Of a stretch of DNA of 64,000 nt, positions 1 to 63,958 are shown piece by piece. The DNA is from Escherichia coli (lineage in GTDB: Bacteria > Pseudomonadota > Gammaproteobacteria > Enterobacterales > Enterobacteriaceae): the NCBI GenBank assembly GCA_902500005.1, contig GCA_902500005.1_3678.1; one strand, 5' to 3'. The position numbers were made by a program, and so were the translations under genes. Position 1 is the stretch's first letter. Each line of letters opens with the position of its first letter. The notes below the pieces were generated by a model that was not told the DNA's origin, searched no databases, and worked only from the letters and a program-made list of their open reading frames with translations.

Positions 1-250
1 GCTGCTGGCTAGGTCTGTGCGGGTATTCAGAGACAATACCTCAAATAGACATTGTTGTAGAAGCCTGTATGAAGCTACTGCAAAAGCACCACTTCATCAA
101 TGGGGATAATGTTTTAAACGGCTGCTGGGCAGTTTCTGATCCGGTGGGCTATCACTCTGGCGAAATCCTTCGCGGTCTGGGCCTTTATGCTCAATACCGT
201 GGATTGTACCTTTAACATAGGGGGCTGTTTGCCCCCTTTCAGGAGAAAGA

Positions 251-39254: not shown

Positions 39255-40460
39255 ATGATTTTCATCTACGAACATTTCAAAACCCGTAAAGAAGCACGAG
39301 ACCGCCGTGCAGAACTTGAGAAGAAGGGTTTCACATGTGCCATTGAGAAAGGCGACACAACCTGGACACTGGCAGTTGGTGCCCCAGAGTTGTTCGATCC
39401 TGACCGTGACAGCGTCTGCTACACCCGTGAGGATTTTGAAACCCGCGAAGAGGCCCGTTTATTTCGATACGGTCTGGAAGATAACGGTAAGTACGCTATG
39501 ATCTTAGATTTAGGCGAAGGTTCCGTTAAACGTTGGGGCGTGGTATACCCACTGTGTGTTGTTCACGGTGTGGGGTTCACTGGGGTAGCAATCAAGTCAG
39601 AAGAACCTTTAGTAGAAGTCAAAGATCCGGTGCTGGAGGTGGTGAGCAGTGTGTCTCAGCAACAGACTCGAAGCATCGAGCCTTTGGTAGTTATTTGTGG
39701 GGAACTCCTCCAGATCACCTGCAACGAAGGCATTTTTGAAATTCGCCGCAGCGAAAGTGAGGAAGTTTACCAGAAAGTCTTCGACCATATCTCTGTTCAG
39801 GAATATGACGAGGCAATTGGTGAAATCCTTGTCTGGTTGGAACGCAAGAATGAGTTCACCACACTTGCAGACAACCTGATCATGAAGGATGGTAAGCTCT
39901 ACTACTACGGTGTAGAGATGCGATCCACCATTGCAAAGAAAATTGAGAAAGATTATGCAGACGGAACACTGGATGACCGCTATGTGAAATTCCTAGTTCG
40001 CCTGCTACGCAATCCTTCTGCAAAATCTGTAAACATGCTCTACGATTTTATGCAGGCCAACGATATCCAGATTGCAGAAGATGGTCGAATCATTTGCTAC
40101 AAAGGGGTTCAGTTTAACGGCAGCAAGTGGGTGGATTGGCACAGTGGTAAAGTTCCACAATACCAGGGTGCTTTTGTATCCATGCCTCGTAACTTTGTAG
40201 AGGATGATCCGGAAGCTGCGTGCTCCTATGGCTTACACTGCGCCAGCAAAGAGTATGCAAAGAGCTACGGCACTGTAATGACTGTTATGGTTGATCCTGC
40301 AGATGTGGTTAGTGTGCCATACCAACACAATAGCGCTAAGTGCCGTGCATGCCGCTATGAGATTGTGGTAGCTCCGGAAGCACGCAAAGATGGAGACCCT
40401 ATTGAATATGTAGTTGATCGTGACGGTAACACTATCGACATTCTTTACGAGGAGGCGTAA
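39255..40460 (+). CDS. hypothetical protein with two N-terminal repeated small domains (401 aa)
   Basis: ATG after AAGGAGACC; residues 1-40 and ~55-95 are internal repeats (…TRKEARDRRAELEKKGFT… / …TREEARLFRYGLEDNGKY…). Confidence 0.5.
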   Translation: MIFIYEHFKTRKEARDRRAELEKKGFTCAIEKGDTTWTLAVGAPELFDPDRDSVCYTREDFETREEARLFRYGLEDNGKYAMILDLGEGSVKRWGVVYPLCVVHGVGFTGVAIKSEEPLVEVKDPVLEVVSSVSQQQTRSIEPLVVICGELLQITCNEGIFEIRRSESEEVYQKVFDHISVQEYDEAIGEILVWLERKNEFTTLADNLIMKDGKLYYYGVEMRSTIAKKIEKDYADGTLDDRYVKFLVRLLRNPSAKSVNMLYDFMQANDIQIAEDGRIICYKGVQFNGSKWVDWHSGKVPQYQGAFVSMPRNFVEDDPEAACSYGLHCASKEYAKSYGTVMTVMVDPADVVSVPYQHNSAKCRACRYEIVVAPEARKDGDPIEYVVDRDGNTIDILYEEA

Positions 40461-41830
40461 TGGAAAAAGGGCAGTATGATGTAGGCACAGATGCTGCCCT
40501 CGTTGCAATCATGAGCGGTGAGAATGTCTTCGTTTCAGGACCCGCAGGTTGTGGGAAGACGTACCTCATCAACATGATCCAGTCAATGTATGGAGACTCT
40601 TGCATAACGGTTGCCCCGACAGGGGTTGCCGCTTTAAACGTTAATGGAGCAACAGCACACCGAACCTTCGATCTTGCAGCAGGTGTGAGCATGGAGTCAG
40701 ACTGGACTGCAATAAGGGCAAAAACAGCAAAGCCTTTGAAAAGCAAGGCATTTACCATCCTAATTATCGATGAAATCTCTATGATCCGTGCTGATAAGTT
40801 TATAGAGATGGATAGGAAACTCCGCTTCCTTCGAAAAAATGACAAACCTTTCGGAGGCATACAGGTCATATTGTTTGGCGATTTTTACCAGGCACCTCCT
40901 GTTGTCTCTTCTATGGAGAAGGAAGCCTACTTCAACTTCTACCATACGGATCTGTGTTGCTATACCGAATCTTGGAAAGAGCTTGACCTCCACAACATAG
41001 CCCTAATAGATCAGTTCCGACAGGAGTCTATTCGATTTGCCACAATGCTCAACTGTGTTCGTGAAGGTCGCCGCATAAAAGAGGTTGTAGCAGAACTTAA
41101 TGCTCGCTGTTACAAAGGTGGTGTACCAACAGATGCTCTCACAATTTGCGCCACCAACAAACAAGCAGAGGAGGTGAACAGAAGGTTCTATGATGCCATC
41201 AACGCCCCAGAGAAGGTATACACTGGTGAAATGAAGGGTAAGTTTCCCTCCACCCTGCCAGTTGAGCAGGAGATGAAGTTGAAAATTGGCATGAAAGTTA
41301 TGATAACCGCCAACGATGTTGACCCGACGCACAAAGTACCTTATTATGTTAACGGAACACGTGCCACAATTGTTAAATTTAAGAACAAGGCAGTGGTGGT
41401 AGAGCTTGAAGATGGAACTCAGGTTGACATAGAGCAGAGGTTGTGGGAGAATAACGAGTATAAGCCATCTCAGAGATACAACATTGCAGAAAGGAAGATG
41501 GAGAAGTTTATAGAGAGGGTAGTGATTGGGTCATACAAGCAACTTCCTCTGAAATCTGGGTATGCCGTAACATCTCATAAAAGTCAAGGACTTACGCTAG
41601 ATTGTTACAACCTAGACCTTGGAAAGAACGGAGCTTTCTCTCCTGGGATGACGTATGTTGCTTTGAGTCGAGTTAAGACAATACAAGGAATAAACTTGTT
41701 GCGTCCACTAAGAGAAGTTGACATTATTGTTGACCCGCGAGTCGTAGAGTTTTACAATACAACATTCCCTGACTTAGACAAAATTGTCAGGAAAGATTTT
41801 GAAACCAGAGCAGAAGAGGGGGACGTATGA
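40460..41830 (+). CDS. SF1B DNA helicase, Dda/RecD/Pif1-like
   Basis: Walker A GPAGCGKTY; motif II IIDEISMI; motif V VTSHKSQGLTLD. Confidence 0.8.
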   Translation: MEKGQYDVGTDAALVAIMSGENVFVSGPAGCGKTYLINMIQSMYGDSCITVAPTGVAALNVNGATAHRTFDLAAGVSMESDWTAIRAKTAKPLKSKAFTILIIDEISMIRADKFIEMDRKLRFLRKNDKPFGGIQVILFGDFYQAPPVVSSMEKEAYFNFYHTDLCCYTESWKELDLHNIALIDQFRQESIRFATMLNCVREGRRIKEVVAELNARCYKGGVPTDALTICATNKQAEEVNRRFYDAINAPEKVYTGEMKGKFPSTLPVEQEMKLKIGMKVMITANDVDPTHKVPYYVNGTRATIVKFKNKAVVVELEDGTQVDIEQRLWENNEYKPSQRYNIAERKMEKFIERVVIGSYKQLPLKSGYAVTSHKSQGLTLDCYNLDLGKNGAFSPGMTYVALSRVKTIQGINLLRPLREVDIIVDPRVVEFYNTTFPDLDKIVRKDFETRAEEGDV

Positions 41831-43475: not shown

Positions 43476-44240
43476 TTGAAATTTATCTACAAAGAACACT
43501 ACCACAAAGGTGTTGTGTGGAGCCTATTTGACGGATCTGGTGGTGCAGTCATTGACTGGGCAAAAGCTGGGTATCTGTGCCTGTGCTTTAATGCAGAAGG
43601 TGCTGATCACGGCAGTTATGCAGAGGTGATAACCGATCATCCCAACATTCACTATGTGGATTATTGGATTGACCCATGGTTCCCTCAGGAAACTTTTTGC
43701 ATGTACCCAGCTCCAGACTTTATTCTTGCATTTCCTCCGTGCACGCATTTAGCGGTATCAGGTGCTGCACATTTTAAGAAAAAGCTGGCTAAGGACCCCA
43801 TGATCCAAATTAATGCTGTAAGGGATGCTCGGGTTGCGGAAGAGCTGGGAGAGATTTACGATTGCCCGTGGCATGTAGAGAATCCTGTAGGTGTTATGTC
43901 CACACTGTGGCGCAAACCTGATTACCGTTTTCATCCTTCTGACTATGGCGGGTATTTACCGGAAGATGATGTAAACCCATGGTTTCCTGAATTTATAGCT
44001 CCACGTGATGCCTATCCAAAAATAACTTGCGGCTGGATAGGTAATGGATTTATAATCCCGGCCACAAAACCTGTCCCGCAAATAGTTGACGTGGTTAGCG
44101 GGTATTCCATGCAACACGCCAAGCTGGGTGGAAAGAGTGCAAGAACGAAGATGATTCGAAGCCTCACACCACGTGGCTGGGCAAAAGCCGTATTCTTAGC
44201 AAACGAGCCTGTAGTAAGGAGCAGAATTAATGGGAAGTAA
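43476..44240 (+). CDS. compact DNA cytosine-C5 methyltransferase-like protein (~254 aa)
   Basis: Motif I LFDGSGGA (FxGxGG), motif IV FPPCTHLAVSGA (PC catalytic Cys), motif VI HVENPVG (ENV); only in-frame start after the terminator is TTG 43476, 8 nt after AGGAG. Confidence 0.55.
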   Translation: MKFIYKEHYHKGVVWSLFDGSGGAVIDWAKAGYLCLCFNAEGADHGSYAEVITDHPNIHYVDYWIDPWFPQETFCMYPAPDFILAFPPCTHLAVSGAAHFKKKLAKDPMIQINAVRDARVAEELGEIYDCPWHVENPVGVMSTLWRKPDYRFHPSDYGGYLPEDDVNPWFPEFIAPRDAYPKITCGWIGNGFIIPATKPVPQIVDVVSGYSMQHAKLGGKSARTKMIRSLTPRGWAKAVFLANEPVVRSRINGK

Positions 44241-46308
44241 ATTTATGGCATCTGCATACAACCGTTTCGGTGAGCCAAACCCGAAAGCAACTAAGTATAA
44301 AAGTGGGGGAAGTGTGAAACGAGACTATCGTGATGAAAAAGAAGTTGAAACTGTAGAGACTGTTTTAGAAAATACTAAAATTGTCCCTGTCCCACAACAA
44401 AATATCGGTCTGATGGCTGCACAATATTTTGGTGTGCGATCAGCATTATCCCAAGAAGATGGTGTGACAGTCACTGCAACATATTTCCCATATTACGACC
44501 GCTACGGAAATCTGTCCGGTTTCAAAAAGCGTGACTGGACGATTCCTAAAGAGCAAAGAGGCCATTTCTCCGTTGTTGGCATAGTAAAGGCTAACTCTCA
44601 GATGTTTGGTCAAAAGCTGTGTGCATCTTCCAACAACCGTAAGCAGATTAACGTTTGTGAGGGAGAAGGTGATGTTATTGCAGCATGGCAGGCTGCATAT
44701 CAGATACAAGTAAAAGGGATTCTCACCAACGCTAAAGCCCCGGCAAAGGTGAAACAGTGGGCTAAAGAGGTCCAGGACGGGATCGATGCAGTTATCAACG
44801 GTGGTGATCTGGCAGGAAAACCATGCCTGCCTTTTGTTGGAATTAACTGTGGATGTGCAAACGCAGTAGATACTTTTGCAAACAATGAGAAGTTTATCCG
44901 TAGCTATGGAACAGTTGTGCTGGCAATGGATAACGATGCAGCTAACGAGGTAGAGAAGCAAAAACACGTCATTAAAGGTGTTGAGGCCACGCACAATATC
45001 GCAGCATTTTTGATGGCTGATAACGTTTACCACGTAGAATACCCCGGTGAGGTAAACGATCCTGACGGTGTAAAAGATATCCGTGACATGCTAAAGGCTA
45101 AAAAGCTGGAAGATATTGTAAACATGTTCCGGCATCCTGTTAAGTATGTGCCTGATGCTGTGTCGGATTTAGAAGACTTCTCTATCGAATCTTTGCGGAA
45201 AAAGACTTCCAACGGGGTAGATATCAGCGCAGAGTTTCCAAAACTGCAAAAAATGCTAAAAGGCTTGCACAAAGGGACACTCGTAATGCTTACAGGGCCA
45301 TCAGGGGGCGGTAAAACAACTGTAGCTAAAAAACTGGAACATTGTATTGCAAGATACTTGATGGACCCGACATGCCCGAAGGCCGATGACTATGAAGAGG
45401 ATGATCGTCTATGCATGATCCATCTTGAGGAGGACCCAGAGGAAGCAATTAACTCCTTGTATGCAAACCAGCTAGGGTTTGATGTTAAAGAGTTTGTTGA
45501 AGATCCTAGCCAGTTTTTAACTGATCAAGAACACGCAGAGATTCACCAATCATGGGCAAAAGCTGGAAAAATCAAAGTGTTCAAACATTTCGGGTCTATT
45601 CCGGTGGACGAGTTGATTACCAAGCTTAAGCAAATGGTTTGCCTGTACCATTGCCGTTATATTGTGCTGGATCACCTGTCCATGGTAATTTCGGGGCTTA
45701 ATGTTAAGGATGAGCGAAAAGAACTGGACATGGCTATGACCCAGCTGGCTGCGTTTTGTAAGCAGTTCAATGTGTTTATCTTGGTGATCGCTCACCTCAA
45801 ACGTACAGAGATTGTGCCTCCTAAGGACAAGGATGGTAACCCGTTACCTTTCTGGTATCCTGTGCGAAAAGAGAATTTGCGAGGATCGGCTGGGCTTGAA
45901 CAGTTGAGTTGGGTAGTCATAGGTGTCGAGGCCGAAGAAATGGTGGATCGTTCTCGTGGGCGTGTCCGACTGGTAGGTCTTAAAAACCGTCCAGCAAAAA
46001 CTTTAGGTATTGCAGACACTTTGGTTATGGACCCACATACAGGTAAGTTCCATGATGCCAGTAATTGGTACTGGGACAAAGAAATGCAAATGTTTACAGA
46101 TGGAGAAGGTGGGGAGGTTGTTTGGAGACCTCAGGCTATGTTTGAGGATCAGGAGCATGCAGTTGTAGAAACACCTATGGGTAAGGTTGTGGCTGATAAG
46201 GTTGTAACACCCACTGTCAAGCCTATTGACACGCAGGAAGACCTCCAATACGATGATCCATCCTCTGATCCGGTCCCTGGTTTTGAGGATGATGAAACAC
46301 CTTTTTAA
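44230..46308 (+). CDS. DNA primase-helicase (Toprim + DnaB-like helicase, T7 gp4-like organisation)
   Basis: Toprim EGEGD and MDNDAAN motifs in N-terminal half; Walker A GPSGGGKTT and Walker B IVLDHLS in C-terminal half. Confidence 0.8.
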   Translation: MGSKFMASAYNRFGEPNPKATKYKSGGSVKRDYRDEKEVETVETVLENTKIVPVPQQNIGLMAAQYFGVRSALSQEDGVTVTATYFPYYDRYGNLSGFKKRDWTIPKEQRGHFSVVGIVKANSQMFGQKLCASSNNRKQINVCEGEGDVIAAWQAAYQIQVKGILTNAKAPAKVKQWAKEVQDGIDAVINGGDLAGKPCLPFVGINCGCANAVDTFANNEKFIRSYGTVVLAMDNDAANEVEKQKHVIKGVEATHNIAAFLMADNVYHVEYPGEVNDPDGVKDIRDMLKAKKLEDIVNMFRHPVKYVPDAVSDLEDFSIESLRKKTSNGVDISAEFPKLQKMLKGLHKGTLVMLTGPSGGGKTTVAKKLEHCIARYLMDPTCPKADDYEEDDRLCMIHLEEDPEEAINSLYANQLGFDVKEFVEDPSQFLTDQEHAEIHQSWAKAGKIKVFKHFGSIPVDELITKLKQMVCLYHCRYIVLDHLSMVISGLNVKDERKELDMAMTQLAAFCKQFNVFILVIAHLKRTEIVPPKDKDGNPLPFWYPVRKENLRGSAGLEQLSWVVIGVEAEEMVDRSRGRVRLVGLKNRPAKTLGIADTLVMDPHTGKFHDASNWYWDKEMQMFTDGEGGEVVWRPQAMFEDQEHAVVETPMGKVVADKVVTPTVKPIDTQEDLQYDDPSSDPVPGFEDDETPF

Positions 46309-46366: not shown

Positions 46367-48790
46367 ATGAGCATGTGGTCGTTCGATTTTGAGTCATCCG
46401 GTTTGCTGGAAGACCCAGATCTTTATTATCATTGCGGCCTGTTTAAAGAGCTGAATAAGAACCGTTTTATGCTGTTCCTTCCTCTAAATGACCGCACACA
46501 CTACTCCGAGGAGGATATAGAGAAGGCTAAGAACTTTATTCTGGCAAAGAAAACTCTTTATAAAGATTTTGAAGTTCGCATAGCAGATTTTTCGGAGTTG
46601 GAAGGTTGGCTTACAGGAAATTCCGACTGGTCACCAACAGCTTTGAACTGCCATAACTGCTACAGTTATGACTTTATGCTGATGGAGAGATTATCTGGTA
46701 TTCATTTTGATATGTTCCGTGATCCTAAATGTATGGGGACTATCAACGACCACCAGGTTAACCTGTTCGATACGTTGGCGATGAGCCGAATCTTGTGGCC
46801 TGATCGCCCTTTACCAAAAGGTTGTCCGGACTCTGTATTCAACCCGGTTACTAAGAAAATGCAGCCTGTTGGTCCTCACGGCCTTATGGCATGGGGCTAC
46901 GCTCTTGGTAACCAGAAAGTTCAAATTGATGACTGGCGCGATCTTCCGCTGTGGAAGTATGTGGATCGTGTATTCGAGGACGTTATCATCCAGGAGTTGC
47001 TCTGGAAAGAGCTGGTAGCGGAATCAAAAGGTGTATTCTACGGCAAATCTGACATGCAGAACTTTATGTACGATCCTGCCAAAGAGAAGCCAAAAGGGTT
47101 CAAGAAGATCACCTGGAAGAACGCATTACGCCGAGGCATGCTGCAGCACTTCCTGATGGAGCTGCAGGCCCGTCAGGGTGTGTATTTCGACATAGACGGG
47201 GCTATTGCTTTACGTGACCGTTGCGATGCGTGGATGAAAGAAATAGCTGATCGTGTTGAACCACAACTACCTTTAAAAGAGCTGTCAATGTCTCAGCGGC
47301 CCAAGTTCCCTGAAAAGCCGTTTAACCAAGATGGGACAATCTCCAATAATGGTTGGAAATGGTTAAAAGATAAGCTTGGCTATCCTGTAGACATGAGCGC
47401 TTTAGAGTTCAAAGCCCCACCTAAGCGAGCATTTACCTCCACAGGAGATGTCAGTAAAATGGGGATAAAATGGTGTGAAGAGATGGGCTGCAAAGACCCA
47501 GACAAGATGGCTGATTTCTTGAGAGGTTATATTAAGGGCACCTCCACACCACAACCTTTACCTAAAGAGCTGATGGATCAGGCAATAAGCGATCTGCAGC
47601 AGAAGCGAATGCCTGACTGCAAGATACCTATGAAAATCAGCAATCAGGACGATATTAAGCGATACCTGATCAGTGCTGGTTGGCTTCCGACAATGTGGAG
47701 AACTAAGGATGTAACTAAAGACAGCAAGAAGAAAGCTCTACCTGATGCAGATGTTGATGCACGAGTATATGCATATATGGACGAGCTTTTAGAGTCAGAG
47801 TATTGTGACCTGATTATCAACTTCTGGAACAAAACTGATGCTAAGTTCCAGACAACCGTGCACAAGTTCCGAAGCTTTCCTAACTCCGAAAGGATTAAAA
47901 AGGAAGTATTCGGGAAAATACGTAGAAAAGCCAGGGCACTTATTACTTCTCCGCAACTGAAAGATACGTTTGGACACCTATGTCCGAATCTTGAAAAATT
48001 GAACGGAGAGATGGCTAAAGATATCGTCTTGTGGTTATCATTGCGAAACCGCAGATCGGTCCTTGATCCAATTAAGGAGGATAAGGTTGATACTGGTCTT
48101 CTTAATCACCCACGTTTGAAGATTGACCATAAGCTTCCTGCTAAAAGCTCTGGATTAACAAACACTTCCAGACAGAAACACAGTATTTGTGCAAACATGC
48201 CTAAACCATCTCCTAAAGTGGTTATGGGTAAAGAGATGCGTAGTCTGTGGGGTGTTCCTCCAGGATACTTTGAGATCGGTATTGACGGGTCCAACTTAGA
48301 GCAGCTTATCGGGGCTTGGGGTGCCTTTGAGTTCGACAACGGCTTGTATTATGATGTTGTAAGTAACGGGGACGCACACCAAAACAATGCTGAGGCATAT
48401 ACAAAAGTAGCAGGCAGAGAGGTGTCTCGTAACGACGGTAAACCTATCACGTATGGGGTTATGTACGGGGCACAAAAAGATAAAGTTGCAGATATGCTGG
48501 ACATCTCTCCAGAGTTGGGACAAAGGGTGATCGATGCACTTTGGGATGCCAACCCTGGTCTTAAGGGGCGTAAAGAGGATCTGGAGAAATTCTGGGAAGC
48601 AACGGGTAAGAAGTTTATCTACTCTTTTGATGGTCATGCCATCTGGACCCGATCTAAACACTCTTTACTTAATGCATACCAACAGAATGGTGGTGCATCG
48701 CTGTGTGACTTAGTTGGGATACTTATGCACCACCAAATGGTGAAGCGTGGGTGGTACGATGAAGGTGTTCGTCGTATTATCTATTACCAT
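46367..48790 (+). CDS. DNA polymerase, family A, exon 1 (808 codons; 3'-5' exonuclease + polymerase motifs A and B)
   Basis: Exo I FDFESSG; motif A DGSNLEQ; motif B RNDGKPITYGVMYG; ORF stops 2 codons after …IIYYH, just before the expected motif C. Confidence 0.85.
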
Positions 48791-49633
48791 AAATAACATT
48801 GTGGCTTCATAGAGTGATCTATGTCGAATAACCTCTTTAATCGACGGGAAAGCTAAGTTGACTTTTACACCTGAGTATGGTAAAAGCTCAATATGCTAAT
48901 CCGCAGCGAAGACTAAAGGGGTGTAGTTAAAATGGCTAGAACAGCTGATTATCACGGGTATACCGTGTTTGATGATGGAACAATACCTTTATCGAAACGT
49001 GATCATACAACAATGTTTTGTTTTGATAATGGTAGAGGTTACCTTTGCGTAACCATGCTAATCGAGGGGAAGCAGTGCACAAAAGGTGTCCACCACCTGG
49101 TTGCTGAATGCTTTGTATCAAACCCAGATCCTGAAAGGCTCACATGGGTGAACCATAAGGATGGGAATAAGTACAACAATGCATACTGGAACCTGGAATG
49201 GACCACCCCTGGTGGAAATATCAAGCACGCCTATGATAATGACCTCAGAGTAAGGCCAGTTGGTGAGTATAATGCCAACGCTGTGCTGACAGAAGATGAG
49301 GTAATAGAGATTTGCGAACTGTTGCAGAGTGGTCTACGACAATGCGAGATTAGGGATCTTGGATATCCTTATGAGACCGTCAGGGCTATAAAGCAAAGAA
49401 GACAGTGGAAACATATCTCTAAAAACTACACCTGGTAGTAACGTTCAGAGACTATCGAAAGCATAGCGCCAACATAAATTGGTGCGAAGAAGCGAGTAGA
49501 GTAGGCCAGCAAGTGCGGTCGAAATGGGAGGTGCCTTGGTAACAAGGTAGTGAGATAGTCCGATCCATACAGGAAACTGTATGGCTGTGCACGTAATGGT
49601 GCGGGGTAGCTTAACGACCTACCTGAACTATTG
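48791..49633 (+). mobile_element. group I self-splicing intron interrupting the DNA polymerase gene, carrying an HNH homing endonuclease ORF
   Basis: Conserved elements P-like gacgggaaag (48842), Q aatccgcagc (48898), R gttcagagacta (49443), S agatagtcc (49553; P7 gacta/tagtc pairing); 5' exon ends in U, intron ends in G; IGS gtgg (48801) pairs with exon end ccaT; splicing joins …IIYYH to DEYQLQV… restoring motif C. Confidence 0.75.
48932..49438 (+). CDS. HNH homing endonuclease (HNH_3-type), intron-encoded
   Basis: …VHHLVAECFVSNPDPERLTWVNHKDGNKYNNAYWNLEWTT… classic HNH motif; ORF sits between intron Q and R elements. Confidence 0.8.
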   Translation: MARTADYHGYTVFDDGTIPLSKRDHTTMFCFDNGRGYLCVTMLIEGKQCTKGVHHLVAECFVSNPDPERLTWVNHKDGNKYNNAYWNLEWTTPGGNIKHAYDNDLRVRPVGEYNANAVLTEDEVIEICELLQSGLRQCEIRDLGYPYETVRAIKQRRQWKHISKNYTW

Positions 49634-57458: not shown

Positions 57459-57791
57459 ATGGTAACATTGGAAAGACGTAAAGCTATTGCCGCCACACTG
57501 GCAGACATCTTTTGGGATTGTAATTTAAAATCTACCCGAAATTGTGGTGCATCTGTAGATGTATTATTCCCACGGCCTACTATTGTTGCAATGGGCAACC
57601 TGCTCGATGTGGTATATGGAGCATGGGACAAGGAAGGTGGATTCTATATCTGGCAACCTGACTACGGGACTTGGAAAGAGGTTAGTGGTTCTTCGGACTT
57701 CACTCCTGCAGTGGCTAAAATGGATGGCTGGAAAATCTATGTCGGTAACGACATGGAACTGAAAGGCGAAATTGTTTACTGGTTACCTTAA
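57459..57791 (+). CDS. hypothetical protein (110 aa)
   Basis: ATG start. Confidence 0.45.
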   Translation: MVTLERRKAIAATLADIFWDCNLKSTRNCGASVDVLFPRPTIVAMGNLLDVVYGAWDKEGGFYIWQPDYGTWKEVSGSSDFTPAVAKMDGWKIYVGNDMELKGEIVYWLP

Positions 57792-57812
57792 GAAAGTCCA
57801 GGAGATAAAGTT

Positions 57813-58058
57813 ATGAACAAAGGGTGGACATTTGTAGACGGCGTTAAAAACATGCCTCTAGGAAAGTATATTGTAGCCATGGCAGATGAGAATGGCAAGG
57901 TTGATTTCGGAGTTTGCGAGGTTGTTCTTGCAGGATCTGGTGACTATGCTCACAAAACTGGGATAATTAACGGTCATTTCTACTTTGATTACAACCCTGT
58001 TGTGGCGTATATGGCTATGCCAGAGTTCGAGCTCCCAAAGGAAGGTGCAGATGTTTAA
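57813..58058 (+). CDS. hypothetical protein (81 aa)
   Basis: ATG after AGGAG. Confidence 0.4.
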   Translation: MNKGWTFVDGVKNMPLGKYIVAMADENGKVDFGVCEVVLAGSGDYAHKTGIINGHFYFDYNPVVAYMAMPEFELPKEGADV

Positions 58059-58248
58059 GCTTAAATCTGCATGGAACATCGCTGTGGGGGACGAGATCCG
58101 TATCCCAGGTGGAAAGACCATTATGAAAATATCTCGTATCGAGTACGAAGGTGATCGTGTATTTCATATCTTTGCAGAAGATGGTCGAGAAATTTATATA
58201 CAGGCAGGCTCTCACATCTATATTCGTAAGAAAGGGGAGGACAAATGA
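58051..58248 (+). CDS. hypothetical protein (65 aa)
   Basis: ATG after AAGGAAGG; overlaps upstream stop. Confidence 0.35.
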   Translation: MFKLKSAWNIAVGDEIRIPGGKTIMKISRIEYEGDRVFHIFAEDGREIYIQAGSHIYIRKKGEDK

Positions 58249-58574
58249 CAGAGATCATCATTTCAACTGCAGGGTATGTATTCCTGACAATCATTGCGCT
58301 GGCTATTCTGGTGGCGGTGTATGGATTTGTTATCCTTCCTATTCTTGAGACATTTAGTTTGTGTCGGTGTTGGAGAAAAGCTTACGGTCCACAACCATGG
58401 AAGGACTGGCCCCACCTGGTGCGCTTAGCGTTCTCTTATGCTTACGATCACTCCAGTAGTGCATGCATAACCGGATACCACGCCCACAACTGGAGCTGGG
58501 AAGGGTTGAGGAAATGGAATGTTACAAAGACCATACCTCTGCGCATGTACAAACCTAAAAACAAAGACAACTGA
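58245..58574 (+). CDS. small membrane protein (109 aa)
   Basis: ATG after AGGGGAGG; hydrophobic segment YVFLTIIALAILVAVYGFVILPIL. Confidence 0.4.
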   Translation: MTEIIISTAGYVFLTIIALAILVAVYGFVILPILETFSLCRCWRKAYGPQPWKDWPHLVRLAFSYAYDHSSSACITGYHAHNWSWEGLRKWNVTKTIPLRMYKPKNKDN

Positions 58575-58599
58575 TACTTGAAAATTCCTGGCATATCAA

Positions 58600-59110
58600 G
58601 TATAAGGGGGATTTCTAAAATGGATTTCCTCCTTTTGATATTTCACCGGGCTGGATATTTTAAAATTCTTAGAAAATCAGAAAATGGATCGAAAACTAAA
58701 ATGGATTTTTCAGAGTAGGCGCGACAAGCTGAATAACTCATCCTATCGTTTGCACCATATTCCAGACCACCATTATAGATTTCCCACACATGCTAACCTC
58801 CCTCTACTAGAACTTCCTCCACTTACCCTTGACCTTCTATGGTAACAATCTAACCACTATCTTGAAGTTGCGGTGCAGCTTTCCAGGTACTCGATCTACT
58901 TTTCATTTCAGGGCTTGGATTTTCTGAAAATTTTTCTCGATAAATTTCTCAGTACTCGATCTGTTTTTCGTTTTCTGAATCGGATTTTCTGGAAATCGTT
59001 CCGGATCTCGACCTGAAATTTTTGGGGACGAAATCTATTTTTCGTTTTCAGAAATGGATTTTTAAAATTTCTATATGGGAATATTTTATGGGGCACTGTT
59101 TTATAGGAAA
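58600..59110. repeat. ORF-poor AT-rich region with iteron-like direct repeats
   Basis: ~22-nt unit tactcgatct(a/g)ttttc(a/g)ttt at 58888 and 58953 (related copy 59030); 15-nt unit ggattttctg(a/g)aaat at 58917 and 58982; (a)aaatggat variants at 58617, 58681, 58697, 59052. Confidence 0.55.
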
Positions 59111-59206
59111 TTGTTACGGAGGGTAATTAGCATGCTAATTAAATTTATTAAATGCGAGGGATTCTTATTTAGAATTTTGAATGATAATTATTCTCGTTTG
59201 CAGAAT

Positions 59207-59386
59207 AACGGGCAGGCCCGGTGATTGTCTCCCGGCCCCTGCTGCCCCGGCTTGTTATTATAGTATCACACAGGACAAAGAAGGCAAGGATTTTTTGCAT
59301 AAATTTTTAAATGATAATGATAACCGTTCTCATTTTATGAAGCGCCCATCCCCGGTGGTTGTCTCCCCCGTCACCGGTGCCTGCCG
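59207..59386. repeat. GC-rich repeat elements (two direct copies); inverted copy at 63888-63931
   Basis: ggcaggcccggtgattgtctccc (59207) and ccggtggttgtctcccccgtcaccggtgcctgcc (59350); reverse complement at 63890-63931. Confidence 0.5.
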
Positions 59387-59539
59387 TCCTTTCGATAGGT
59401 ATATTATGCCGCCTGGCGGGGCCGCTGTCAACACTTTTCAAAAAATTTTTCTAACCTGATGCGCTAACCGTTGCAACCTGGCGGGGCCAGCCTGGCAGGT
59501 CCGCACTATAAAGTAAACAGCTACAGAAGAGGTACAAAA

Positions 59540-59713
59540 ATGAAAGGTAATGCTACTCGCCTGGGAAATGTAGTGATTAATGATACGGAAGCTATCGCCC
59601 TGGTTGAAAAGGTTATGGCGGGAGCGTTGGAACATAAAGAAGAGTACGAAAAAATGGTGGTTAACCTGGCGGGGGCGGCAGGTGGATTCTATCATAAAAA
59701 TAATTTAAAATAG
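59540..59713 (+). CDS. hypothetical protein (57 aa)
   Basis: ATG after AGAAGAGG; track start 59471 lies in repeat region. Confidence 0.35.
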   Translation: MKGNATRLGNVVINDTEAIALVEKVMAGALEHKEEYEKMVVNLAGAAGGFYHKNNLK

Positions 59714-59716
59714 TCG

Positions 59717-59744
59717 TTGACAACAAGGTTAATCATGGTATTAT
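59717..59744 (+). promoter_or_regulatory. sigma70-like promoter
   Basis: TTGACA-16 nt-TATTAT. Confidence 0.5.
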
Positions 59745-59794
59745 TACCCTACAAGGTGAACAACACCGCACTAACCAGTAAAGAGGATAAATTT

Positions 59795-59992
59795 ATGAAC
59801 GCATACGGGATCAAAGTACGTCGCAACACTCGCCAGGTGGTCACCAATCAAGTGATTTGCCGGGTGGATGTAACCATCAACAACGGGCAAGGCCTTTATA
59901 AATTTCGTCGCGGTCATAGCTATACCCTGCAACAGCTTAATCGTTGCGCCCTGACAAAAGGTCAGATCAACCACTGGTTTAATAAAAAATAA
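59795..59992 (+). CDS. hypothetical protein (65 aa)
   Basis: ATG after AAGAGGA; track start 59717 is TTG of the -35 element. Confidence 0.4.
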   Translation: MNAYGIKVRRNTRQVVTNQVICRVDVTINNGQGLYKFRRGHSYTLQQLNRCALTKGQINHWFNKK

Positions 59993-59995
59993 GTA

Positions 59996-60024
59996 TTGAC
60001 ATACAGTCCGACACCAAATACACT
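59996..60024 (+). promoter_or_regulatory. sigma70-like promoter
   Basis: TTGACA-17 nt-TACACT. Confidence 0.5.
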
Positions 60025-60056
60025 AAAAGCACAAAAGACACTAAGAGGATAAAATC

Positions 60057-60455
60057 ATGAAAACCACTACCTTTAATTTTGATAATGCAGACTTTTCTTT
60101 TTCTGATGTCAAGAACTGCCGCCGTGATCGTGGATTTTACAAGGCTTATAATCTGGTGGGCCTGGACGATGACAATAATTTGCACGAAGTAGCTGAGATC
60201 CGGTATTATGCCGCCGCCAGCGGGAACACTCACTACTGCGTGTTTTGGATTCACGACAACAAGAACAATAAGTACGGTTATACTGGCGGCAAGGCGAGCG
60301 GTCACGGTTACGATAAAGCTAACGCAGCACTTGAGAGCGCATTAAATGCTATGGGGATCACTGCCGACGGCTGGATCTACGAAGAAGAGTTTTTGTCGGC
60401 ACTTGCTGACCACCTGGGCTATAAAAAACACATTGTAACATGCGCCCACGAATAA
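60057..60455 (+). CDS. hypothetical protein (132 aa)
   Basis: ATG after AAGAGGA. Confidence 0.45.
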   Translation: MKTTTFNFDNADFSFSDVKNCRRDRGFYKAYNLVGLDDDNNLHEVAEIRYYAAASGNTHYCVFWIHDNKNNKYGYTGGKASGHGYDKANAALESALNAMGITADGWIYEEEFLSALADHLGYKKHIVTCAHE

Positions 60456-60461
60456 AAATCA

Positions 60462-60489
60462 TTGACACGCTGCAAAATTTAAGTAAACT
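60462..60489 (+). promoter_or_regulatory. sigma70-like promoter
   Basis: TTGACA-16 nt-TAAACT; followed by leader hairpin ggcgggaatgtttcccgcc. Confidence 0.5.
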
Positions 60490-60537
60490 AGACACAAAAG
60501 GCGGGAATGTTTCCCGCCAGCACAAAGGAAAAAGATC

Positions 60538-63484: not shown

Positions 63485-63633
63485 CCGTGAAAAAGATAAT
63501 CATTACCTTGGGGATTGTGGCGGGATCGCTGGCGCTCTTTCCCCTTATGGTTAGATATGTGCTGATCAGTATTGTCCTGGTGGTCAGTGATCTACTAGAA
63601 ACGGTTGGCACCTTGTTTTAAAGAGCGATAAAA

Positions 63634-63872: not shown

Positions 63873-63887
63873 ATACTTATTACACGG

Positions 63888-63931
63888 CAGGCACCTGGCG
63901 ACGGGGGGGGGGGAGACAATCACCGGGCCTG
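63888..63931. repeat. inverted copy of the 59.2-59.4 kb GC-rich element, containing a G11 homopolymer tract
   Basis: cggcaggcacctggcgacg-G11-agacaatcaccgggcctgcc is the reverse complement of the 59350/59207 elements; G-run 63903-63913. Confidence 0.5.
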
Positions 63932-63958
63932 CCTGTCATATAAGAACTATAAAAACCG

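What the first reader, a model, noticed from the sequence alone, without database searches (positions are those of the whole stretch)
58575..59110. Iteron-like direct-repeat region, candidate replication origin or regulatory hub
A ~0.5-kb stretch with no convincing ORF contains at least two near-identical ~22-nt units (tactcgatct[a/g]ttttc[a/g]ttt), two 15-nt units (ggattttctg[a/g]aaat) and several (a)aaatggat variants, all in direct orientation, plus a short palindrome (atacttga…tcaagtat) at the 5' edge. Arrays of directly repeated short units in AT-rich DNA are characteristic of origin iterons or clustered binding sites. The region lies just downstream of the replication module.
Basis: seen in the sequence. 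Interest (0 to 1): 0.5.

Follow-up and report, generated by a model that had tools for sequence, protein, structure and literature searches.

The report
Conserved repeat-rich non-coding hub, rV5-like phage
A gene-free stretch of about 1 kb in an rV5-like E. coli phage holds three ordered ~70-bp repeats, look-alikes of binding sites for the host iron regulator Fur, and promoters pointing into the repeats; the layout is the same in two phage subfamilies, so this is the best candidate in this window for the unmapped replication origin, or else a master control site, but its function is unproven.

Summary
The repeats are real and non-random: 36 repeated 8-mers against 6.8±3.6 in shuffles (0 of 300 reach it). 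The window is a Vequintavirus, 99.9% identical to phage naswa.

The finding covers the left two thirds of a 965-bp non-coding region, 58575-59540. This region is present in 116 of 117 vequintavirus records. Its substitutions show no codon periodicity.

The same layout recurs in Seunavirus, Certrevirus, Mydovirus, Phapecoctavirus and uncultured relatives:
- GATATTT boxes
- a variable spacer
- three units 63-78 bp apart, spanning 139-145 bp in 9 of 10 genomes
- 1-6 Fur-box palindromes, identical over 17-19 nt to the E. coli ryhB and mntH Fur boxes
- GC-rich elements
- a near-consensus sigma-70 promoter that reads leftward into the repeats in all 14 genomes compared

The repeat part is the most AT-rich DNA of the 64 kb.

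My best reading (0.36) is an origin-type assembly site that is activated or primed by leftward transcription. The main rival (0.30) is a transcription-control or ncRNA hub. The genome ends lie elsewhere, which rules out a packaging site.

Against the origin reading:
- no initiator protein was found
- no DnaA or IHF sites were found
- the skew shift has the wrong sign
- a DnaA-box cluster sits at the genome end

The parts
58571..58606 (.). 11-bp-arm palindrome right after the stop codon of ORF 58245-58574. It overlaps the first GATAYTT box (GATACTT at 58573).
   Evidence: I15. As RNA it folds no better than shuffles on the - strand (-7.6 kcal/mol, z +0.99) and only slightly better on the + strand (z -1.4). 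The 3' arm changes without compensation in FV3, and the palindrome is absent in YP6 and slur16. It is probably of minor importance.
58612..58715 (+). Module A: GATATTT boxes at 58637 and 58654, and AAATGGAT boxes at 58618, 58682 and 58699.
   Evidence: 58655-58715 is nearly invariant among 8 vequintaviruses. In all 12 loci from other genera, 2-5 + strand GATATTT boxes lie 482-673 bp left of the GAATRRC anchor; only two loci also have copies outside that cluster (L009 four, L011 one). AAATGGWTTT boxes recur in the other genera.
58716..58885 (+). Module B: variable spacer, C-rich on the + strand.
   Evidence: Only 24-60% of columns are invariant per 25-nt bin, and there is no codon periodicity. 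C/G is 2.2. The most C-over-G 170-nt stretch on the + strand of the whole window starts here, at 58736-58905. The C-bias is shared with W70 and ChuuTotoro but not with Mydo or L017.
58886..58950 (+). Repeat unit 1 (GGTACTCGATCTACTTTTCATTT ... GGATTTTCTGAAAAT ...).
   Evidence: CTCGATC occurs on the + strand of the window only in units 1 and 2.
58951..59024 (+). Repeat unit 2 (AGTACTCGATCTGTTTTTCGTTTT ... GGATTTTCTGGAAAT ...).
   Evidence: It is nearly invariant in the genus.
59025..59090 (+). Repeat unit 3, with a degenerate first box (GGGACGAAATCTATTTTTCGTTTT ... ATGGATTTTTAAAAT).
   Evidence: (D1, 77% identity to unit 2). Spacings are 63-78 bp in the nine three-unit genomes. The span from unit 1 to unit 3 is 139-145 bp in 9 of 10 genomes.
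59053..59152 (.). The least stable 100 bp of duplex in the window. It lies inside the most AT-rich stretch (58893-59210; 26-31% G+C).
   Evidence: this is the lowest G+C of the whole 64 kb at window sizes of 100, 200 and 300 bp, and the weakest nearest-neighbour stability.
59110..59138 (-). Weak candidate leftward promoter (TTAGCA-17-AACAAT) just left of the Fur boxes.
   Evidence: it matches 8 of 12 positions. Leftward promoter-like sites lie at the same place (-36 to -70 from the anchor) in PVP-SE1, Mydo, W70, L017, L021 and L036, four of them with an extended -10 TG. This is prediction only.
59155..59201 (.). Fur-box look-alikes: a weak half-site at 59155-59175 and the main box at 59177-59201 (TTGAATGATAATTATTCTCGTTTGC).
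   Evidence: The main box matches the Fur consensus at 14 of 19 in two overlapping registers. The genus consensus is 17 of 17 identical to the E. coli ryhB promoter box and 19 of 19 identical to a site upstream of mntH. This is the only part of the region conserved at DNA level outside the genus.
59203..59256 (.). GC-rich element, copy 1 (CGGTGATTGTCTCC at 59219-59232).
   Evidence: The core CGGTGWTTGTCTC (some genera carry variants) follows the Fur box in all genera compared. A short stem after it changes with compensation between genera (GCGA/TCGC, CGGG/CCCG, GTGA/TCAC, CCGG/CCGG; read by eye).
59257..59287 (-). Candidate leftward promoter TTGCCT-19-TATAAT.
   Evidence: Read from the sequence. 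The spacer is longer than optimal. Other genera have TTGCAA/TTGATC/TTGACC with a 16-17 bp spacer and TATATT/TATTAT at the same relative position, +82 to +88.
59307..59337 (.). Second Fur-box look-alike (AAATGATAATGATAACCGTTCTCATTTTA).
   Evidence: It matches the consensus at 16 of 19, the same score as the genuine ryhB box. It shares the best score in the window with one other site, at 63489.
59340..59395 (.). GC-rich element, copy 2 (CGGTGGTTGTCTCC at 59353-59366).
   Evidence: (D8). It occupies the place that a different conserved GC-rich element ('module F') holds in other genera.
59403..59431 (-). Near-consensus leftward sigma-70 promoter TTGACA-17-CATAAT. The predicted start is near 59396, reading toward the repeats.
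   Evidence: It ties for the best promoter-like match in 57500-60500 (11 of 12). A promoter scoring 9-12 of 12 lies at the same relative position (+229 to +295) on the same strand in all 14 genomes compared, while the spacer sequence differs.

Best explanation
The finding is the left part of a conserved cis-acting DNA region of about 1 kb, 58575-59540. I think this region most likely serves as the phage's origin-type assembly site.

Proposed mechanism, reading right to left:
1. Host RNA polymerase starts at conserved sigma-70 promoters: 59431->59403, weaker candidates at 59287->59257 and 59138->59110.
2. It transcribes leftward across G-rich elements and the Fur-box cluster.
3. It enters the most easily melted DNA of the window (59053-59152) and the three ordered repeat units (58886, 58951, 59025).
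4. The units, together with the GATATTT and AAATGGAT boxes further left, are bound by one or more so far unidentified proteins in a fixed geometry.
5. Transcription opens the AT-rich DNA or supplies the primer for the phage's T7-type replisome (family A polymerase, gp4/DnaB-like helicase). This resembles the T7 primary origin, T4 oriF/oriG, and transcriptional activation of lambda ori.
6. Fur bound to its boxes would modulate that transcription.

What is shown: the repeats, their conservation and geometry, the AT-rich minimum, the promoter-like and Fur-box-like sequences and their conservation.

What is inferred: that proteins bind, that the promoters fire, that Fur binds, and that replication starts here.
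For: - The repeats are non-random, and their motifs occur almost nowhere else in the window.
- The region is in 116 of 117 vequintavirus records. It is non-coding. It is more conserved than the flanking genes: many 25-nt bins are 84-100% invariant, against 16-40% at the end of the upstream gene.
- The same ordered modules are present in PVP-SE1, CR3, Mydo, W70, ChuuTotoro, ukendt and IMG/VR relatives, although the flanking proteins are not shared.
- Geometry is kept: three units 63-78 bp apart in nine genomes, a span of 139-145 bp in 9 of 10 genomes, and a GATATTT cluster 482-673 bp from the anchor in all 12 other loci.
- The first box of a unit is more alike within a genome (83%) than between genomes (67-69%). 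At the same time, 11 of 27 units resemble their positional counterpart in another genome more than their neighbours in the same genome. So the three units are old and are not interchangeable.
- The repeat part is the AT-rich and stability minimum of the 64 kb.
- A strong leftward promoter is conserved in position in 14 of 14 genomes.
- The replisome is T7-like, and no initiator protein was recognised. From my own knowledge, this fits transcription-dependent initiation.
- The origin of rV5 was sought and not found (PMC3606486).
- Homing-endonuclease genes sit at the edges of the region. From my own knowledge, such genes tend to insert next to strongly conserved sequence.
Against: - There is no experimental mapping.
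- No protein that could bind the units was identified.
- There are no DnaA or IHF consensus sites, GATC is not enriched, and the resemblance to oriC 13-mers is not above chance (34 matches against 32 expected).
- GC3 skew of + strand genes changes from +0.02..+0.11 upstream to -0.18/-0.06 downstream. That is the opposite of the sign change at a bacterial-type bidirectional origin, though it may only reflect a different class of genes.
- A transcription-primed origin of the T7 type does not need iterons.
- The Fur boxes have no known role at origins.
- In EdH4 the terminal non-coding region next to the 458-bp repeat has four same-orientation DnaA-box-like repeats within 90 bp. The origin could be there instead.
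- No plasmid or satellite has borrowed this region.
Confidence: 0.36

Rival explanations
1. The region is a transcription-control and insulator hub with no role in starting replication. It lies where rightward read-through from the middle (replication) operon meets leftward transcription from the conserved promoters. The C-rich spacer acts as a Rho-loading site for the rightward RNA. The repeat units and boxes are operators for phage regulators that time the switch between early and middle expression. The Fur boxes make the leftward promoters respond to iron. The leftward RNAs are regulatory or merely interfering.
For: - Leftward promoters are conserved in 14 of 14 genomes.
- The Fur-box look-alikes are identical to real Fur-regulated promoters.
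- No intrinsic terminator lies between the upstream operon and the region.
- 58736-58905 is the most C-over-G stretch on the + strand of the window.
- In other genera a conserved element behind the rightmost promoter shows some RNA covariation.
- Copies of the GC-rich element also sit between early genes elsewhere (63912-63925; EdH4 2220).
Against: - These phages otherwise separate operons with simple hairpin terminators. About 1 kb with fixed geometry and three ancient ordered units is far more than an insulator needs.
- The C-bias of the spacer is not shared by all genera.
- No conserved promoter lies inside the units on either strand.
- RNA folds of the window's GC-rich elements are no better than shuffles (z between -1.8 and +0.6).
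- The leftward RNAs have no gene to express and no annotated antisense target.
Confidence: 0.3
2. The repeats act as RNA. A leftward non-coding transcript of about 0.5-0.8 kb carries three repeated modules that bind or sequester an RNA-binding protein or another RNA.
For: - Conserved leftward promoters feed the repeats.
- Each unit contains a short inverted repeat whose sequence differs between genomes while staying complementary, for example ATTTTTTC...GAAAAAAT in PVP-SE1 against ATTTGCTCC...GGAGCAAAT in one unit of L036 (read).
Against: - The inverted repeats are almost pure A/T in most genomes and would be very weak RNA stems.
- No Rfam family matches.
- No terminator defines an RNA end: the 58571-58606 hairpin is weak and not conserved.
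- Fixed spacing in base pairs and a minimum in duplex stability are properties of DNA.
Confidence: 0.1
3. The region is a DNA-entry or anchoring signal like the injection stop signal of T5. It would mark the inner border of the first few kb that enter the cell, which carry the small early genes.
For: - The ends of vequintavirus DNA are fixed, with a 458-459-bp terminal repeat (PMC6563267; PMC6658697).
- The region lies about 11 kb (8%) from the left end in EdH4, with about 30 small early genes between it and the end, transcribed toward the end.
- The T5 signal is also a highly conserved untranslated region of about 1.2 kb, full of direct and inverted repeats, at about 8% of the genome (bioRxiv 10.1101/866236).
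Against: - The paired DnaA boxes that characterise the T5 region are absent here. DnaA-box-like repeats occur instead next to the terminal repeat.
- The region is not inside a long terminal repeat.
- Two-step entry has never been reported for these phages in the papers I could search.
- The distance to the end differs between isolates: the landmark element lies 4.5 kb from the region in this window but 9.2 kb from it in EdH4.
Confidence: 0.07
4. The region is a packaging (pac or cos-type) recognition site. It would resemble the three terminase-binding R sites of lambda cosB.
For: Three protein-site-like repeats span about 140 bp, which is similar in scale to cosB (my own knowledge).
Against: Two independent reports place the ends in a 458-459-bp non-permuted terminal repeat, in a different non-coding region between convergent transcripts. 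In EdH4, whose record I take to start at that repeat, this region lies at 11.3-12.6 kb.
Confidence: 0.02

Closest known systems
Iteron-type theta origins (lambda ori; plasmid oriV/oriR of RK2, pSC101, P1)
   Same: Several same-orientation repeats of a specific motif lie next to the most AT-rich, most easily melted DNA. The repeats evolve partly in concert within a genome. There is nearby transcription, as in the activation of lambda ori by pR (my own knowledge).
   Different: - The units are 65-75 bp and composite, not 17-22 bp.
- There are only three, each with its own conserved identity.
- No Rep/O-type initiator gene is adjacent or was recognised.
- There are no DnaA or IHF sites.
- Function is untested.
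Transcription-primed phage origins: T7 primary origin (promoters 1.1A/1.1B plus an AT-rich region) and T4 oriF/oriG (middle promoter plus a downstream unwinding element)
   Same: A promoter or promoters point into an AT-rich unwinding region. The replisome is of the T7 type with no recognisable initiator. The region lies at the border between early genes and DNA-metabolism genes (my own knowledge for T7 and T4).
   Different: - The promoters here are host sigma-70 type.
- Ordered repeat units and Fur boxes have no counterpart in T7 or T4.
- No R-loop or primer has been shown.
Fur-repressed promoters of Enterobacterales (ryhB, mntH)
   Same: The palindrome AATGAKAATCATTCTCATT matches the 19-bp Fur consensus at 14-16 of 19, and is identical over 17-19 nt to the ryhB and mntH boxes. 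It occurs in overlapping hexamer registers and in arrays of up to six.
   Different: - It lies in a virulent phage.
- It does not clearly overlap the -10/-35 of a strong promoter. It lies about 50-110 nt downstream of the predicted start of one leftward promoter and just upstream of a weak one.
- Fur binding is untested.
T5 'repeat region 3' / injection stop signal
   Same: A conserved untranslated region of about 1 kb, crowded with direct and inverted repeats, better conserved than neighbouring early genes, and a few percent from the left end.
   Different: - There are no paired DnaA boxes.
- It is not within a long terminal repeat.
- There is no evidence of two-step entry.

Membership tests
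Iteron-type replication origin | Three or more same-orientation copies of a specific repeat, beyond chance | tested here: met
   Three units start at 58886, 58951 and 59025. Repeated 8-mers number 36 against 6.8±3.6, and 0 of 300 shuffles reach that.
Iteron-type replication origin | An adjacent AT-rich DNA unwinding element | tested here: met
   58893-59210 is the G+C minimum of the whole 64 kb at three window sizes, and 59053-59152 is the least stable 100 bp. Actual unwinding was not tested.
Iteron-type replication origin | A cognate initiator protein encoded by the element that binds the repeats | tested here: inconclusive
   No initiator-like family was found among 10 proteins scanned against Pfam and 10 against PHROGs (a partly overlapping set), nor among the flanking genes. 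Many small ORFs have unknown function, and binding cannot be tested here.
Iteron-type replication origin | Replication starts at the site, or the site supports replication | not testable with these tools
   This needs marker-frequency sequencing, 2D gels or plasmid amplification. GC3 skew shifts at the site but with the sign opposite to a bacterial origin.
oriC-type origin (DnaA boxes plus GATC-led 13-mers) | Clustered DnaA boxes TTWTNCACA | tested here: not met
   There are no exact boxes in the window's region and no conserved ones in 11 genomes.
oriC-type origin (DnaA boxes plus GATC-led 13-mers) | 13-mers GATCTNTTNTTTT enriched | tested here: not met
   There are 34 matches in the window against 32±5 expected, and only one unit matches with 2 or fewer mismatches. 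GATC is not enriched.
Transcription-primed origin (T7 / T4 oriF type) | A promoter directed into an AT-rich region | tested here: met
   TTGACA-17-CATAAT lies at 59431->59403. A promoter is conserved in position and strand in 14 of 14 genomes. This is sequence prediction only.
Transcription-primed origin (T7 / T4 oriF type) | The transcript forms a primer or R-loop used by the replisome | not testable with these tools
   The leftward RNA would be G-rich over the GC-rich elements, but no data on hybrids exist.
Fur-regulated promoter | Match to the 19-bp Fur box comparable with genuine sites | tested here: met
   59313 scores 16 of 19, the same as the ryhB box scored the same way. There is 17-19-nt identity to the ryhB and mntH boxes.
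Fur-regulated promoter | The box overlaps the core promoter it represses | tested here: inconclusive
   The boxes lie between the leftward promoters. They are just upstream of a weak candidate (59138->59110) and downstream of the stronger ones.
Fur-regulated promoter | Fur binds, and expression responds to iron | not testable with these tools
   This needs EMSA or ChIP, and infection of fur mutants or iron-starved cells.
T5-type injection stop signal | Paired DnaA boxes in inverted repeats within the terminal repeat | tested here: not met
   There are no DnaA boxes. The terminal repeat is only 458-459 bp and lies elsewhere.
Packaging site (pac / cosB) | Lies next to the mature genome end | tested here: not met
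   The ends were mapped by others to a different non-coding region. In EdH4 this region is about 11 kb from the record start.
Known RNA families (Rfam 15), tRNA/tmRNA | Covariance-model or ARAGORN match | tested here: not met
   No match at E<=1 in 57500-60500, nor in the corresponding region of six related loci. No tRNA was found.
CRISPR-like mini-array | Identical repeats separated by unrelated spacers | tested here: not met
   Whole units are 70-77% alike along their length, and the stretches between the conserved boxes are conserved across the genus.

The most novel reading that the evidence does not exclude
The host iron regulator Fur gates a phage replication origin. Fur would bind the 1-6 conserved boxes lying between the leftward promoters and the AT-rich, repeat-bearing part. 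That would control the transcription that opens or primes the origin, so rV5-like and phAPEC8-like virulent phages would couple the start of DNA replication to the iron status of the cell. A weaker variant of the idea: replicated phage DNA titrates Fur and derepresses the host iron regulon.
Probability: 0.1. Interest if true: 0.8.

Novelty: new variant of a known kind. Interest (0 to 1): 0.55.

Why it matters
The replication origin of rV5-like phages is unknown. These phages form a large group used for E. coli O157 typing and biocontrol, and they are in the BASEL collection. The rV5 genome paper looked for the origin by skew analysis and did not find it.

This region gives a precise, testable candidate with defined parts: three units, an AT-rich minimum, three leftward promoters and the Fur boxes. 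The parts are conserved across Vequintavirinae and Stephanstirmvirinae.

Whatever the function turns out to be, two points are new as far as the literature I could search shows:
- a cluster of sites indistinguishable from host Fur boxes is kept in virulent phages of at least seven host genera
- a sigma-70 promoter firing against the direction of all neighbouring genes is conserved in every genome compared

In practice, the region is annotated with spurious small ORFs in many records. It is also a place to avoid, or to exploit, when engineering these phages.

Tried and rejected
- **Packaging site or genome end.** Rejected, because the termini were mapped elsewhere.
- **Coding region.** Rejected. 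Annotations are inconsistent, substitutions show no 3-periodicity, and the apparent RBS+ATG at 59132 heads a 30-codon frame whose substitutions are mostly non-synonymous.
- **Tandem promoters inside the three units.** No conserved -35/-10 pair lies on either strand (by eye on PVP-SE1).
- **oriC-like 13-mers, DnaA, IHF, GATC clustering.** None is above chance.
- **Intrinsic bending.** There is no 10-11-bp AA/TT periodicity.
- **Known RNA families and tRNA.** None found.
- **Stable RNA structure of the window's GC-rich elements and of the 5' palindrome.** Not better than shuffles.
- **CRISPR-like array.** Rejected.
- **Homology of flanking proteins between genera**, looking for a linked binding protein. 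None found.
- **An initiator among the replication-module ORFs.** None recognised.
- **Copies of the region in plasmids or E. coli chromosomes**, which a satellite might have borrowed.
- **ICP1, whose origin was mapped near 60 kb.** There is no comparable non-coding region in NC_015157 at 50-70 kb, and the papers give no sequence detail.
- **Homology of the element after the Fur box to the ryhB 5' end.** The shared TTGTCTCGCGAT 12-mer in PVP-SE1 is about what chance allows over the sequences compared. I make no claim.
- **Literature searches for any description of this region.** Nothing found.
Full report
**What the window is.** A 1.4-kb stretch around the finding (58200-59600) is 99.9% identical to Escherichia phages naswa, magaca and EmilHeitz. 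It matches 117 phage records, nearly all Vequintavirus (rV5-like myoviruses), and 116 of them cover at least 80% of the query. All genes from about 32.6 kb to the end of the window are on the + strand. The replication genes lie upstream: a PIF1-like helicase at 40460-41830, a DnaB-like helicase at 44230-46308 and a family A polymerase at 46367-48796. About 20 small genes separate them from the finding, so 'just downstream of the replication module' means about 10 kb.

**Check of the observation.** The short repeats belong to three longer units that start at 58886, 58951 and 59025, spaced 65 and 74 bp. Against 300 dinucleotide-preserving shuffles of 58575-59110, the region has 36 repeated 8-mers (shuffles 6.8±3.6) and a best direct ungapped alignment score of 20 (shuffles 10±1.2). 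No shuffle reaches either value. CTCGATC occurs on the + strand of the 64 kb only in units 1 and 2. Four of the six + strand AAATGGAT copies are in this region.

**The region is non-coding.** Different records annotate different small ORFs here, or none. Variable columns in an alignment of eight vequintaviruses fall evenly on the three phases: 30/32/32 in 58716-58885. The gene-free stretch is larger than the finding. It runs from the stop codon of ORF 58245-58574 to the ATG at 59541.

**Conservation within the genus.**
- 58655-58715 and 58890-59480 are nearly invariant. Many 25-nt bins are 84-100% invariant.
- 58716-58885 is variable (24-60%).
- The end of the upstream gene is 16-40% invariant.

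So most of the non-coding DNA is under stronger constraint than the neighbouring genes.

**Conservation beyond the genus.** A sensitive blastn found only 59139-59274 in other genera, always unannotated. Reading those loci showed that a gap of about 1 kb, without credible genes, exists at the corresponding place in:
- Seunavirus PVP-SE1
- Certrevirus CR3
- Mydovirus Mydo
- W70
- Serratia phage ChuuTotoro
- Phapecoctavirus ukendt (subfamily Stephanstirmvirinae)
- several IMG/VR contigs of 121-153 kb

The order of parts is the same in all of them. I name the parts as modules:
- **A:** 2-5 GATATTT boxes, followed by AAATGGWTTT-type boxes.
- **B:** a spacer that is not conserved in sequence.
- **C:** three repeat units (four in W70).
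- **D:** one to six palindromes of the type AAATGAGAATCATTCTCATTT.
- **E:** a GC-rich element with the core CGGTGWTTGTCTC.
- **F:** a second GC-rich element.

The proteins encoded on either side are not shared between Vequintavirus and the other genera.

**Geometry.**
- Unit 1 to unit 2 is 65-78 bp and unit 2 to unit 3 is 63-74 bp in the nine three-unit genomes. The span from unit 1 to unit 3 is 139-145 bp in 9 of 10 genomes.
- The + strand GATATTT boxes form a cluster 482-673 bp left of a fixed anchor (GAATRRC, 59203 in the window) in all 12 other loci. The window's own boxes are at -566 and -549. This holds although module B differs completely between genera.
- The first box of a unit is CTCGATCG-like in most genera and CTTGAGAGG-like in W70, L017 and L021. 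Its first 13 nt are 83% alike within a genome against 67-69% between genomes.
- Yet 11 of 27 units resemble the unit at the same position in another genome more than they resemble their own neighbours.

The three units are therefore old, ordered and not interchangeable, with some concerted change of the first box. This is what I would expect of a nucleoprotein assembly site with a phage-specified binding partner.

**Physical property.** 58893-59210 has the lowest G+C of the whole 64 kb at window sizes of 100, 200 and 300 bp (26-31% against a mean of 44%). 59053-59152 is the least stable 100 bp by nearest-neighbour energies.

**Promoters.** The best promoter-like match in 57500-60500 is on the minus strand: TTGACA-17-CATAAT at 59431->59403, matching 11 of 12, tied with one + strand site at 59717. 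In all 14 genomes compared, a minus-strand promoter scoring 9-12 of 12 lies at the same relative position, +229 to +295 from the anchor. Its hexamers are kept while the spacer varies.

A second leftward promoter lies at +82 to +88 in most other genera. In the window it is TTGCCT-19-TATAAT at 59287->59257, which is suboptimal. A third, weaker one lies just left of the palindromes. In the window it is TTAGCA-17-AACAAT at 59138->59110, and four genera have an extended -10 there.

No comparable + strand promoter exists in the region. So transcription from the right end is predicted to run leftward, against all neighbouring genes, through modules E and D into the AT-rich DNA and the repeats. This rests on sequence and conservation, not on RNA data.

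**The palindromes look like Fur boxes.**
- The consensus of module D hit the yhhX-yhhY intergenic region of E. coli, 17 of 17 nt at the ryhB promoter. I confirmed this by reading RyhB on the opposite strand.
- It also hit a site directly upstream of mntH, 19 of 19 nt.
- Both promoters are Fur-repressed. That statement is my own knowledge.
- Scored against GATAATGATAATCATTATC, the window's site at 59313 reaches 16 of 19, the same as the ryhB box. It shares the best score in the 64 kb with one site at 63489. The site at 59177-59201 reaches 14 of 19 in two overlapping registers.
- Related phages carry up to six such boxes in tandem.

The motif is the same in phages of Escherichia, Salmonella, Cronobacter, Klebsiella/Raoultella, Proteus, Serratia and Pectobacterium. 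This points to a conserved host factor rather than a phage-specific one. Whether Fur binds is untested.

**What it is not.**
- **Not a genome end or packaging site.** EdH4 and HdK5 have 458-bp terminal redundancies (PMC6563267). PhageTerm places a 459-bp non-permuted repeat of LL12 in another non-coding region, between convergent transcripts (PMC6658697). In EdH4 this region lies at 11.3-12.6 kb.
- **Not a known RNA.** There are no Rfam or tRNA matches.
- **Not a DnaA-type origin.** There are no DnaA or IHF consensus sites. GATC is not enriched. The resemblance of GATCTGTTTTTCG to oriC 13-mers is at chance level.
- **Not obviously a structured RNA in this phage**.

**Best explanation and its weaknesses.** I favour an origin-type cis-acting site that is opened or primed by leftward host-RNA-polymerase transcription (confidence 0.36). 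The reasons are:
- the layout of promoter, then unwinding-prone DNA, then ordered repeats
- its presence in nearly every record
- the T7-type replisome without a recognisable initiator
- the failure of the earlier search for an origin in rV5

The comparison with T7, T4 oriF/oriG and lambda rests on my own knowledge.

Against it:
- Nothing shows initiation here.
- No binding protein is known.
- A transcription-primed origin does not need iterons.
- GC3 skew of + strand genes goes from +0.02..+0.11 upstream to -0.18/-0.06 downstream. That is the wrong sign for a bacterial-type origin, and it may only reflect a different class of genes.
- The terminal non-coding region of EdH4 holds four DnaA-box-like repeats in one orientation within 90 bp: TTTTACACA, GTTTACACA, TTGTTCACA, GTTTACACA. 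That region is a competing candidate, and it lies outside this window.

**Main rival (0.30).** A transcription-control or insulator hub at the point where rightward read-through meets leftward transcription. Two facts support it. There is no intrinsic terminator upstream. And 58736-58905 is the most C-over-G stretch of the + strand in the window, with a C/G ratio of 2.2 in module B, which is like a Rho-loading site. That bias is not shared by all genera.

**Lesser rivals.** An RNA role for the repeats (0.10), a T5-like DNA-entry signal (0.07) and a packaging site (0.02).

**Novelty and interest.** I found no description of this region, of Fur boxes in these phages, or of their origin in the searchable literature. 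If it is an origin, it is a new variant of a known kind: composite 65-75-bp units, host promoters and Fur boxes. The conserved Fur-box cluster and the conserved 'backward' promoter are unexpected in virulent phages and can be tested directly. I score interest at 0.55.

Noticed in passing
window 63878-63945 (- orientation); EdH4 L015:2195-2265: This is a third, inverted copy of the GC-rich element (CGGTGATTGTCTCC at 63912-63925). It sits between a hairpin terminator and the next early promoter. The pattern has 4 matches in the window against 0.6 expected. Its G-run is 11 long here and 7 in EdH4. The same landmark is 4.5 kb from the non-coding region in this window and 9.2 kb from it in EdH4, so the early gene block differs by about 4.7 kb between isolates.
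   Followed up: partly
L009:2640-2735, L010:2645-2740, L011:2690-2790 and 16 further loci (not in the window): 'Module F' is a GC-rich element of about 85 nt that is almost invariant across Seuna-, Certre-, Mydo- and Phapecoctavirus. It lies directly behind the conserved leftward promoter. A predicted three-helix fold has two covarying pairs and an invariant G·U on the minus strand. There is no Rfam match. Only one hit turned up in 185,579 bacterial species genomes, on a 4-kb MAG contig. It is a candidate new phage ncRNA. In Vequintavirus a second copy of the Fur-box/GC-rich unit takes its place.
   Followed up: partly
L015 (EdH4) 495-582, outside the window: The 1.47-kb gene-free left end of EdH4, just inside the 458-bp terminal repeat, holds repeats spaced 16 bp apart with four DnaA-box-like sites in one orientation. 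One is an exact TTTTACACA and three have one mismatch. It also has several long inverted repeats. This may be a terminase, DnaA or origin site, and it is a competitor for the origin role.
   Followed up: partly
L005:761-1405 (YP-6), L009:1393-1980 (PVP-SE1), L032 between modules E and F; window 48932-49438: HNH homing-endonuclease genes are inserted at the left edge of the non-coding region in YP-6 and PVP-SE1. Another gene is inserted between modules E and F in a Ro1-like contig. So the modules can be separated without loss of the phage. A further HNH gene follows the polymerase gene in the window.
   Followed up: partly
window 58736-58905: This is the most C-over-G 170-nt stretch on the + strand of the 64 kb. 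The best 78-nt bubble has C minus G equal to 35%. It may be a Rho-loading site for read-through from the upstream operon, which has no intrinsic terminator.
   Followed up: partly
window 58935-58944: TCGATAAATT is invariant in the genus. I did not test it, and in AT-rich DNA it may be chance.
   Followed up: no
window 63489-63507: GAAAAAGATAATCATTACC matches the Fur consensus at 16 of 19. It is the only site outside the non-coding region that scores as high. It lies at the junction of two small early ORFs.
   Followed up: no
window 59300-59169 (- strand): A 43-codon minus-strand ATG frame (MQKILAFFVLCDT...) runs across the first GC-rich element and the Fur box. Substitutions among vequintaviruses are mostly non-synonymous (by eye), so it is probably not a gene.
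   Followed up: partly
window 32600-64000: GC skew at third codon positions of + strand genes is +0.02 to +0.11 in five blocks upstream of the region, and -0.18 and -0.06 in the two blocks downstream. The shift coincides with the region, but its cause (replication, or a different gene class) is open.
   Followed up: partly
PLSDB record CP057073.1: A 137,565-bp 'non-mobilizable plasmid' of E. coli from pooled cattle faeces carries this region at 92.5% identity. It is evidently a vequintavirus genome assembled with its host.
   Followed up: no
L009:2620-2645 and the same place in CR3, Mydo, ukendt, L036: Two direct copies of TCTTTACAA, 11 bp apart (CGTCTTTACAATTCTTTACAAA), lie between modules E and F in most non-Vequintavirus genera compared. 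They are absent from the window, and their function is unknown.
   Followed up: no
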